A stretch of DNA of 64,000 nucleotides from Escherichia coli (lineage in GTDB: Bacteria > Pseudomonadota > Gammaproteobacteria > Enterobacterales > Enterobacteriaceae): NCBI RefSeq assembly GCF_016026235.1, contig NZ_CP065613.1. One strand, written 5' to 3'. The translations under genes were made by a program, and so were the position numbers. The notes beneath the pieces are model-generated. The model was not told the DNA's origin, did no database searches, and saw nothing but the letters and a program-made list of their open reading frames with translations. Numbering within the stretch: position 1 is the stretch's first letter; every line of letters starts with the position of its first letter. Shown here piece after piece: positions 46,988 to 47,106 of the stretch.

Positions 46988-47005
46988 ATGAAAAAATCGT
47001 GCCAG
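46988..47005 (-). promoter_or_regulatory. Sigma-54-type promoter of glnH (glnHp2; minus-strand read tggcacgattttttcata)
   Basis: TGGCAC -24 element with a -12-like element about 45 nt upstream of the glnH start. Confidence 0.5.
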
Positions 47006-47077
47006 TTTTGCAACTCCTTGATTTTTCGAGATGCGGCAAAAACGTGATGCACGATTTATAGGGCAATACCCTGAAGA

Positions 47078-47106
47078 TGCACCATTCTGGGGCACCAATC
47101 TGGTGC
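47078..47106. promoter_or_regulatory. Overlapping NtrC enhancer-like sites (tgcaccattctggggca / gcaccaatctggtgc) upstream of glnH
   Basis: Matches to TGCACC-N5-GGTGCA about 100-130 nt upstream of the sigma-54 element. Confidence 0.6.

What the first reader, a model, noticed from the sequence alone, without database searches (positions are those of the whole stretch)
46988..47106. glnH sigma-54 promoter with upstream NtrC-type enhancer sites
A TGGCAC -24 element with a -12-like element lies about 45 nt upstream of glnH, and two overlapping TGCACC-N5-GGTGCA-like sites lie about 100 nt further upstream. This is the classic nitrogen-regulated enhancer layout and appears intact.
Basis: partly seen in the sequence, partly recalled or inferred. 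Interest (0 to 1): 0.2.

Follow-up and report, generated by a model that had tools for sequence, protein, structure and literature searches.

The report
Known nitrogen-regulated glnH promoter (glnHp2)
This is the well-studied nitrogen-starvation promoter of the E. coli glutamine-uptake operon (glnHp2), intact and identical to the laboratory strain, so it is ordinary and already explained.

Summary
On the minus strand, upstream of glnH (46934..46188), lie CTGGCACGATTTTTTCA (47005..46989), an IHF core AATCAAGGAGTTG (47023..47011) and two overlapping NtrC dyads (47107..47091 and 47094..47078). The whole dps-glnH spacer is identical to E. coli K-12 MG1655. Published numbering puts +1 at window 46977, which places the NtrC centres at -122 and -109 and the ATG at +44. 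The 17-mer is letter-for-letter the sigma-54 ChIP-seq motif reported for glnH, which that paper flags as experimentally confirmed in EcoCyc. Published NtrC ChIP-seq and gSELEX peaks fall on the same spacer. Each motif alone is no more frequent than chance in the 64 kb window, but the joint layout occurred in 0 of 300 shuffles. The layout is conserved with fixed spacing in 53 Enterobacterales, including the non-consensus -12 (TTTCA). One side lead: a strongly conserved NtrC-like palindrome (47252..47236, -267) just after the dps terminator, which I could not find described. Novelty: already known. Interest is low.

The parts
46188..46934 (-). glnH coding sequence (glutamine ABC transporter periplasmic binding protein), first gene of glnHPQ
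   Evidence: ORF and translation. Annotated as glnH in RefSeq E. coli records.
46941..46944 (-). Shine-Dalgarno AGGA, 6 nt before the ATG
   Evidence: Sequence. The AAAAGGAAAt block is conserved in 31 Enterobacteriaceae, at 1.75 bits per column.
46952..46977 (-). 5' end of the glnHp2 transcript (+1 = 46977, G), with a conserved 5'-proximal hairpin (core GCAGGGGATCGTCCCGTGG, 46971..46953)
   Evidence: +1 derived from the -289/+63 primer coordinates of PMC1865078. Fold -8.8 kcal/mol, not better than shuffles. The sequence is conserved at 1.61 bits per column.
46989..47004 (-). Sigma-54 core promoter glnHp2: -24 element TGGCAC (GG at -26/-25 in the published numbering) and non-consensus -12 element TTTCA
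   Evidence: Identical to the sigma-54 ChIP-seq motif OS06 of PMC4591121. TGGCA is invariant, and TTTCA occurs in 46 of 53 Enterobacterales.
47011..47023 (-). IHF core site AATCAAGGAGTTG (-46..-34), a perfect match to WATCAANNNNTTR
   Evidence: Literature reports an IHF footprint and IHF dependence at glnHp2. AAAaCAAt..GTTGyAAA is conserved, at 1.37 bits per column. E. coli alleles differ only at an N position.
47078..47094 (-). Proximal NtrC dyad TGCCCCAGAATGGTGCA, centre 47086 = -109
   Evidence: Half-sites 1.58 bits per column against 0.67 for the spacer. Fixed 84 nt from the GG across genera.
47091..47107 (-). Distal NtrC dyad CGCACCAGATTGGTGCC, centre 47099 = -122, overlapping the proximal dyad by 4 bp
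   Evidence: exact GCAC-N7-GTGC core. Half-sites 1.51 bits per column against 0.97 for the spacer. Fixed 97 nt from the GG.
47104..47120 (-). Third, weaker NtrC-like dyad TGCACAATTTTAGCGCA (centre -135), in the same 13-bp register. It is seen only in Escherichia.
   Evidence: The three sites form 13-bp tandem units. Strain MIN6 lacks exactly one unit and still keeps two overlapping dyads.
47128..47200 (-). Upstream sigma-70 promoter glnHp1: degenerate CRP site 47200..47179, -35-like TTGTTT 47164..47159, -10-like TAAATA 47140..47135, inferred +1 about 47128. Its transcripts read through the enhancer and glnHp2.
   Evidence: The CRP site sequence and its -61.5 position come from PMC1865078. The block is conserved at 1.4 bits per column. 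The hexamers and +1 are my inference. A strict sigma-70 consensus scan finds nothing, which fits the published weak binding.
47236..47252 (-). Far-upstream NtrC-like palindrome CGCACTTATTTAGTGCA (centre 47244 = -267 from glnHp2 and about -116 from glnHp1), directly after the dps terminator.
   Evidence: Half-sites 1.8 bits per column, spacer 0.78, flanks 0.35-0.68. Present about 242 nt from the GG in 36 of 53 loci.
47267..47300 (-). dps intrinsic terminator (13-bp stem, then a T tract), the upstream boundary of the glnH control region
   Evidence: Fold -19.4 kcal/mol, z = -4.05. The stem sequence differs between genera while a G+C-rich hairpin remains.

Best explanation
This is glnHp2, the sigma-54-dependent, NtrC-activated, IHF-assisted promoter of the E. 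coli glutamine ABC transporter operon glnHPQ. It reads on the minus strand.

How it works:
1. RNA polymerase with sigma-54 binds TGGCAC-N5-TTTCA as a closed complex that cannot open on its own. Binding is weak because the -12 element is TTTCA rather than TTGCA.
2. Under nitrogen limitation, phosphorylated NtrC occupies the overlapping dyads centred at -109 and -122 and oligomerises. In Escherichia a third dyad at -135 may also be used.
3. IHF bound at -46..-34 bends the intervening DNA, so the NtrC ATPase contacts the closed complex and drives open-complex formation.
4. Transcription starts at window 46977, 43 nt before the glnH ATG.

The upstream sigma-70 promoter glnHp1 (CRP-assisted) gives the other route of expression.

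What is shown and by what:
- Shown here: the sequence elements, their identity to K-12, their spacing and their conservation.
- Shown by the cited literature: sigma-54, NtrC and IHF binding at this locus.
- Established knowledge about this promoter class, not tested here: the looping and ATPase steps.
For: - Identity to MG1655 across the spacer, and presence in 5421 of 5426 complete E. coli genomes.
- The published numbering gives +1 = 46977, dyad centres at -122 and -109, and the ATG at +44.
- The sigma-54 ChIP-seq motif for glnH is the identical 17-mer, flagged as 'confirmed' in EcoCyc. glnH is up-regulated on sigma-54 overexpression.
- The NtrC ChIP-seq peak at glnHPQ is listed as 'direct binding' and maps to about window 46968..47048.
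- NtrC and RpoN gSELEX peaks fall in the glnH-dps spacer. The published consensus is TGCACCAnnnTGGTGCA.
- glnHp2 is described as weak and dependent on an IHF bend, and an IHF footprint and ChIP-qPCR signal are reported at glnH.
- In Salmonella the homologous site TGGCATGATTTTTTCATT is sigma-54-bound, and glnHPQ expression is sigma-54-dependent.
- The joint layout occurred in 0 of 300 shuffles.
- The layout and spacing are conserved in 53 Enterobacterales. Half-sites are conserved while spacers are free.
- E. coli polymorphisms fall only at N positions or outside the elements.
Against: - No single motif is enriched in the window on its own.
- The -12 element lacks the consensus GC.
- The primary footprinting paper (PMC51078) is not held. 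The statement that NtrC footprints at -109/-122 therefore rests on my recollection, plus the independent numbering.
- The NtrC ChIP-seq peak centre sits about 50-100 bp promoter-proximal of the dyads, which is within normal ChIP resolution.
- No expression data exist for this particular strain.
Confidence: 0.97

Rival explanations
1. The motifs are a chance juxtaposition, and glnH is expressed only from the sigma-70 promoter glnHp1.
For: Each motif alone occurs at about the chance rate in the window. [quoted passage not shown]
Against: - The joint layout occurred in 0 of 300 shuffles.
- The elements are invariant, with fixed spacing, across genera.
- Sigma-54 and NtrC occupancy is reported at this locus, and glnH is up-regulated on sigma-54 overexpression.
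- In Salmonella, glnHPQ is expressed 7.1-fold higher in wild type than in the rpoN deletion mutant.
Confidence: 0.01
2. The NtrC dyads act mainly as an operator that blocks glnHp1 transcripts (they lie at about +9 to +51 of glnHp1) rather than as an enhancer for glnHp2. Alternatively they do both, with the -267 palindrome closing a repression loop around glnHp1.
For: - The dyads sit just downstream of the inferred glnHp1 start.
- The glnH promoter architecture is described as very similar to that of glnA (glnAp1/glnAp2).
- A conserved NtrC-like palindrome lies on the other side of glnHp1. It is 158 bp (about 15 helical turns) from the -109 dyad.
Against: - No data on NtrC repression of glnHp1 were found.
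- The enhancer role at glnHp2 is the documented one.
- The NtrC ChIP-seq and gSELEX peaks sit near the proximal dyads, not at -267.
- This is an addition to the main explanation, not a replacement.
Confidence: 0.2

Closest known systems
glnHp2 of Escherichia coli K-12 (Claverie-Martin & Magasanik 1991, PNAS 88:1631; cited in PMC1865078, PMC4066584 and PMC4591121)
   Same: The sequence is identical over the whole dps-glnH spacer. It has the same sigma-54 17-mer, the same numbering, the same IHF site and the same NtrC dyads.
   Different: Nothing in the control region differs. The window comes from a non-K-12 E. coli, with 99.3% identity over 7 kb.
Salmonella Typhimurium glnH sigma-54 promoter (PMC3844500)
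   Same: It is the homologous site TGGCATGATTTTTTCATT. It is sigma-54-bound and glnHPQ is sigma-54-dependent, with the same non-consensus -12 TTTCA.
   Different: It has C to T at the last base of the -24 hexamer, as do 23 of the 53 Enterobacterales.
glnAp2 of E. coli (the textbook NtrC and sigma-54 promoter)
   Same: It has NtrC dyads about 100-140 bp upstream, an upstream sigma-70 promoter (p1) that is CRP-activated, and CRP repression of p2.
   Different: glnAp2 is a strong sigma-54 promoter that needs no IHF. Its NtrC sites are separate, at -140 and -108, rather than overlapping by 13-bp steps. Extra low-affinity 'governor' sites lie downstream of its enhancer.
Klebsiella nifH/nifU promoters (NifA, IHF and sigma-54)
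   Same: These are weak sigma-54 promoters that rely on an IHF bend between the upstream activator sites and the promoter.
   Different: They use a different activator (NifA), different upstream sites and a different regulon.

Membership tests
Sigma-54 (RpoN)-dependent promoter | A -24 GG and a -12 GC element with fixed spacing (TGGCAC-N5-TTGCW) | tested here: met
   TGGCAC-N5-TTTCA has one mismatch: the G of the -12 GC is a T. The GG and the spacing are exact. The published PSSM score is 10.79, within the range of bound sites. The variant -12 is itself conserved, in 46 of 53 loci.
Sigma-54 (RpoN)-dependent promoter | Sigma-54 holoenzyme occupancy in vivo or in vitro | not testable with these tools
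   Literature only. There is a ChIP-seq peak OS06 (FAT score 6) whose motif centre maps to window 46997, and an RpoN gSELEX peak in the glnH-dps spacer.
Sigma-54 (RpoN)-dependent promoter | A transcription start about 12 nt downstream of the -12 element | tested here: met
   The published -289/+63 primer coordinates both give +1 = 46977, which is 13 nt after the C at 46990. The ChIP-seq paper's rule predicts 46978. No new mapping was done here.
NtrC-activated enhancer (Ntr regulon) | At least two 17-bp dyads matching TGCACCAnnnTGGTGCA, about 100-150 bp upstream of the promoter | tested here: met
   There are two dyads with 1 and 2 mismatches, centred at -109 and -122, and a third with 3 mismatches at -135. 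The consensus is from PMC8743547. The pattern of conserved half-sites and free spacers holds across genera.
NtrC-activated enhancer (Ntr regulon) | NtrC binding and NtrC-dependent induction under nitrogen limitation | not testable with these tools
   Literature only. NtrC ChIP-seq shows 74.8-fold enrichment at glnHPQ in N-starved cells. There is an NtrC gSELEX peak. glnHp2 is described as NtrC-P dependent.
IHF-assisted sigma-54 promoter | An IHF consensus site between the enhancer and the core promoter | tested here: met
   AATCAAGGAGTTG at -46..-34 is a perfect match to WATCAANNNNTTR. The CAA-N4-TTG core is conserved in Enterobacteriaceae. The IHF footprint and bend requirement come from the literature.

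The most novel reading that the evidence does not exclude
The conserved palindrome TGCAC-N7-GTGCA directly after the dps terminator is an additional, so far undescribed NtrC site. In this window it is CGCACTTATTTAGTGCA at 47252..47236, at -267 from glnHp2 and about -116 from glnHp1.

Together with the -109/-122 dyads it would bracket glnHp1. The spacing to the -109 dyad is 158 bp, about 15 helical turns. It could either feed NtrC dimers into the activating oligomer at the weak glnHp2, or close a repression loop that shuts glnHp1 when glnHp2 is switched on.

Its half-sites are more conserved than those of the known dyads (1.8 against 1.5-1.6 bits per column), while its spacer and flanks vary. 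I could not find it in the held literature, but I could not read the primary 1991 paper or RegulonDB. It may therefore already be known.
Probability: 0.25. Interest if true: 0.3.

Novelty: already known. Interest (0 to 1): 0.06.

Why it matters
It matters little as a discovery. glnHp2 has been a model IHF-assisted sigma-54 promoter since 1991, and here it is intact and identical to K-12. The check does confirm that the first-stage reader can recognise this architecture from raw sequence.

The comparative analysis adds three modest points:
- The weak -12 element (TTTCA) is itself under selection across Enterobacterales.
- The enhancer in Escherichia is a 13-bp-register array of three overlapping dyads.
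- A further strongly conserved NtrC-like palindrome sits at -267.

Tried and rejected
- The primary paper (PMC51078) is not held. The supplement of PMC2709558 with the glnHp2 IHF mutants is not held either.
- A first search for the dyad core used the wrong spacer (N9) and found nothing. The corrected N7 search is.
- The strict IHF consensus matched only Escherichia in the cross-species scan. The alignment shows the relatives keep AAACAAnnnGTTG, a single T to A change. This is therefore not loss of the site.
- The generic sigma-70 scanner finds no promoter in the spacer. This fits the published description of glnHp1 as binding RNA polymerase very weakly without CRP, so it does not argue against glnHp1.
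- Rfam finds no RNA family in the spacer.
- A full-text search for the dyad sequences found no paper, not even for the known dyad. It says nothing about whether the -267 site is known.
- The alpha- and beta-proteobacterial loci returned by the degenerate glnH pattern carry no comparable sigma-54 and NtrC layout. Their orthology to glnH was not checked, so I draw no conclusion from them.
- The gSELEX supplement prints CTGGCACGATTTTGTCA for glnH, whereas the MG1655 spacer is identical to the window's CTGGCACGATTTTTTCA. I treat this as a misprint.

Full report
**What is in the sequence.**

The finding lies in the spacer between two minus-strand genes. The ORF at 46934..46188 translates to the glutamine-binding protein GlnH, and the ORF upstream of it to Dps. 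RefSeq annotation of identical E. coli DNA gives the gene order dps, glnH, glnP, glnQ.

Read on the minus strand, the spacer contains these elements:

| Element | Sequence | Window coordinates |
|---|---|---|
| Distal NtrC dyad | CGCACCAGATTGGTGCC | 47107..47091 |
| Proximal NtrC dyad | TGCCCCAGAATGGTGCA | 47094..47078 |
| IHF core (exact consensus) | AATCAAGGAGTTG | 47023..47011 |
| Sigma-54 element | TGGCAC-GATTT-TTTCA | 47004..46989 |
| glnH start codon | ATG | 46934 |

**Is it more than chance?**

Taken singly, no.
- The sigma-54 pattern with at most 1 mismatch occurs 3 times in the window against 4.0 expected.
- The NtrC dyad with at most 2 mismatches occurs 6 times against 3.8 expected.
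- The IHF core occurs 6 times against 2.3 expected.

Taken together, yes. A sigma-54 match with two or more NtrC-like dyads 60-200 nt upstream on the same strand occurred in 0 of 300 dinucleotide-preserving shuffles. With one dyad it occurred in 13 of 300. Only four exact GCAC-N7-GTGC cores exist in the 64 kb, and two of them are in this 400-bp spacer.

**Identity with the mapped promoter.**

The spacer has no difference from E. coli K-12 MG1655. The glnH-to-dps stretch has 2 differences, both in coding sequence. The window as a whole is a non-K-12 E. coli, 99.3% identical over 7 kb.

PMC1865078 describes a glnHp1p2 fragment 'from -289 to +63 of glnHp2' and gives both primers. The two primer ends independently place +1 at window 46977. 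In that numbering:
- the GG is at -26/-25;
- the C of the -12 element is at -13;
- the IHF core spans -46..-34;
- the dyad centres are at -122 and -109;
- the ATG is at +44.

The values -109 and -122 match my recollection of the abstract of Claverie-Martin & Magasanik (1991). That paper is not held, so this point is from memory.

Three published datasets agree.
- PMC4591121 lists a sigma-54 ChIP-seq peak for glnH with motif CTGGCACGATTTTTTCA. The predicted start is 44 bp from the gene, and the promoter is flagged as experimentally confirmed in EcoCyc. Combining that paper's figures gives an offset of 777 bp between the two K-12 reference versions. The motif centre then maps to window 46997, the centre of the 17-mer, and the predicted start to 46978.
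- The NtrC ChIP-seq peak for glnHPQ in nitrogen-starved cells (PMC4066584, mapped to NC_000913.2) corresponds to about window 46968..47048.
- The NtrC and RpoN gSELEX peaks (PMC8743547) correspond to about window 47069, if they use the same coordinates.

**How it works.**

The literature describes glnHp2 as sigma-54- and NtrC-phosphate-dependent. It is also described as a weak sigma-54 promoter that needs an IHF-induced bend for DNA looping. IHF binding at glnH has been shown by footprinting and by ChIP-qPCR.

The sequence explains the weakness, because the -12 element is TTTCA rather than TTGCA. The mechanism is as follows:
1. Sigma-54 holoenzyme forms a weakly bound closed complex.
2. NtrC~P assembles on the overlapping dyads.
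3. IHF bends the DNA between enhancer and promoter.
4. ATP hydrolysis by NtrC opens the complex.

These steps are established knowledge for this promoter class and were not tested here.

Upstream lies the sigma-70 promoter glnHp1. The degenerate CRP site printed in PMC1865078 maps to 47200..47179. Its stated position of -61.5 puts the glnHp1 start near 47128. The NtrC dyads therefore sit at about +9 to +51 of glnHp1.

**Comparative evidence.**

One degenerate DNA pattern from the GlnH N-terminus retrieved 120 loci. In 53 Enterobacterales the same layout recurs:
- The -24 hexamer is TGGCAC in 29, TGGCAT in 23 and CGGCAT in 1.
- The -12 pentamer is TTTCA in 46, TTCCA in 4, and TTGCA or TTGCT in only 3 (Rahnella, Rouxiella).
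- Where the dyads are found, they lie at about 82-86 and 95-98 nt from the GG in most loci (84 and 97 in most Enterobacteriaceae; Pluralibacter and Phytobacter are about 11 nt closer).

The non-consensus -12 is itself conserved. This suggests selection for an IHF- and activator-dependent, tightly controlled promoter.

In a MAFFT alignment of 31 Enterobacteriaceae, information content peaks on the functional blocks:

| Block | Bits per column |
|---|---|
| TGGCA | 2.0 |
| TTTCA | 1.93 |
| NtrC half-sites | 1.5-1.6 |
| NtrC spacers | 0.7-1.0 |
| IHF | 1.37 |
| Unassigned stretches | 0.24-0.35 |

Within E. coli the core is present in 5421 of 5426 complete genomes. In four divergent alleles, substitutions fall only at N positions of the distal dyad and the IHF site, or outside the elements.

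- The TGGCAC is 65-70 nt from the ATG. It is the start site that lies about 45 nt upstream.
- The IHF site was not mentioned.
- In Escherichia there is a third, weaker dyad, TGCACAATTTTAGCGCA (47120..47104). The enhancer is thus three 13-bp units (TGCACAATTTTAG, CGCACCAGATTGG, TGCCCCAGAATGG) followed by TGCA.
- Strain MIN6 lacks exactly one unit. It still has two overlapping dyads with the proximal one at the usual distance from the GG.

**Side lead.**

Directly after the dps terminator (47300..47267; -19.4 kcal/mol, z = -4.05) lies CGCACTTATTTAGTGCA (47252..47236). In other genera it is closer to the NtrC consensus, and in Superficieibacter it is a perfect TGCACCTTAAAGGTGCA.
- Its half-sites carry 1.8 bits per column, its spacer 0.78, and its flanks 0.35-0.68.
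- A dyad core is present about 242 nt from the GG in 36 of 53 loci.
- The half-site sequence is invariant rather than covarying. The neighbouring terminator stem, by contrast, varies in sequence while keeping a hairpin. This argues for protein recognition rather than RNA structure (my inference).
- Its centre is -267 from glnHp2, about -116 from glnHp1, and 158 bp from the -109 dyad.

I found no description of it. However, the key sources were not readable, and the sequence-string search was uninformative. The published NtrC peaks sit nearer the proximal dyads.

**Verdict.**

This is the known glnHp2 promoter, intact. Novelty: already known. Interest is low.

Noticed in passing
window 47236..47252 (minus strand): A strongly conserved NtrC-like palindrome, TGCAC-N7-GTGCA (E. 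coli: CGCACTTATTTAGTGCA), lies directly after the dps terminator. It is at -267 from glnHp2 and about -116 from glnHp1. Its half-sites carry 1.8 bits per column, more than the known dyads. I could not find it described.
   Followed up: partly
window 47078..47120; L126 (E. coli H20 strain MIN6): The enhancer is an array of three 13-bp units that gives three overlapping dyads, at -135, -122 and -109. Strain MIN6 carries a clean 13-bp deletion (GCGCACCAGATTG) that removes one unit. The deletion regenerates a dyad with an intact GCAC-N7-GTGC core and keeps the proximal site 84 nt from the GG.
   Followed up: yes
window 47048..47052 (minus strand), with TTGC about 15 nt upstream: A GTGCA block at -75..-71, between the NtrC dyads and the IHF site, is conserved at 1.7 bits per column. 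It resembles an NtrC half-site. It could be a low-affinity site like those at glnAp2, or the edge of the IHF footprint. This was not resolved.
   Followed up: no
window 46952..46977 (minus strand): The first 25 nt of the glnHp2 transcript form a hairpin whose core (GCAGGGGATCGCCCCGTGG) is conserved in Enterobacteriaceae. E. coli has a G.U pair in place of G-C. Its folding energy is not better than shuffles (z = -0.49). A role is possible, for example protecting the 5' end, but none was shown.
   Followed up: partly
window 47161..47182 (minus strand): Inside the conserved glnHp1 block there is a perfect inverted repeat, ACAATC-N10-GATTGT, that overlaps the -35 region. It might be a site for an unidentified regulator. 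I found no match to a known consensus.
   Followed up: no
window 13822..13837 (minus strand) and 14031..14175 (plus strand): A second sigma-54 motif, TGGCAGGTTAATTGCT, equals the ybhK site OS05 of PMC4591121. Next to it is a Moco riboswitch (Rfam RF01055, 103.6 bits), which fits the divergent ybhK-moaA spacer.
   Followed up: partly
window 26764..26779 (minus strand): A third sigma-54-like hit, TGGCACGGTGTTTACT, has one mismatch, with TTTAC at -12. Its context was not examined and it is probably chance.
   Followed up: no
window 12725..12766, 29803..29845, 35081..35151, 56566..56608 (minus strand): Rfam matches to ES036/CssrF and naRNA4/CssrE. These models match repeated extragenic (REP-type) elements. 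They are unrelated to the finding.
   Followed up: no
Supplement of PMC8743547 (glnHPQ row): The gSELEX supplement prints the glnH RpoN motif as CTGGCACGATTTTGTCA. The MG1655 spacer is identical to the window, which reads CTGGCACGATTTTTTCA. This is probably a misprint.
   Followed up: yes
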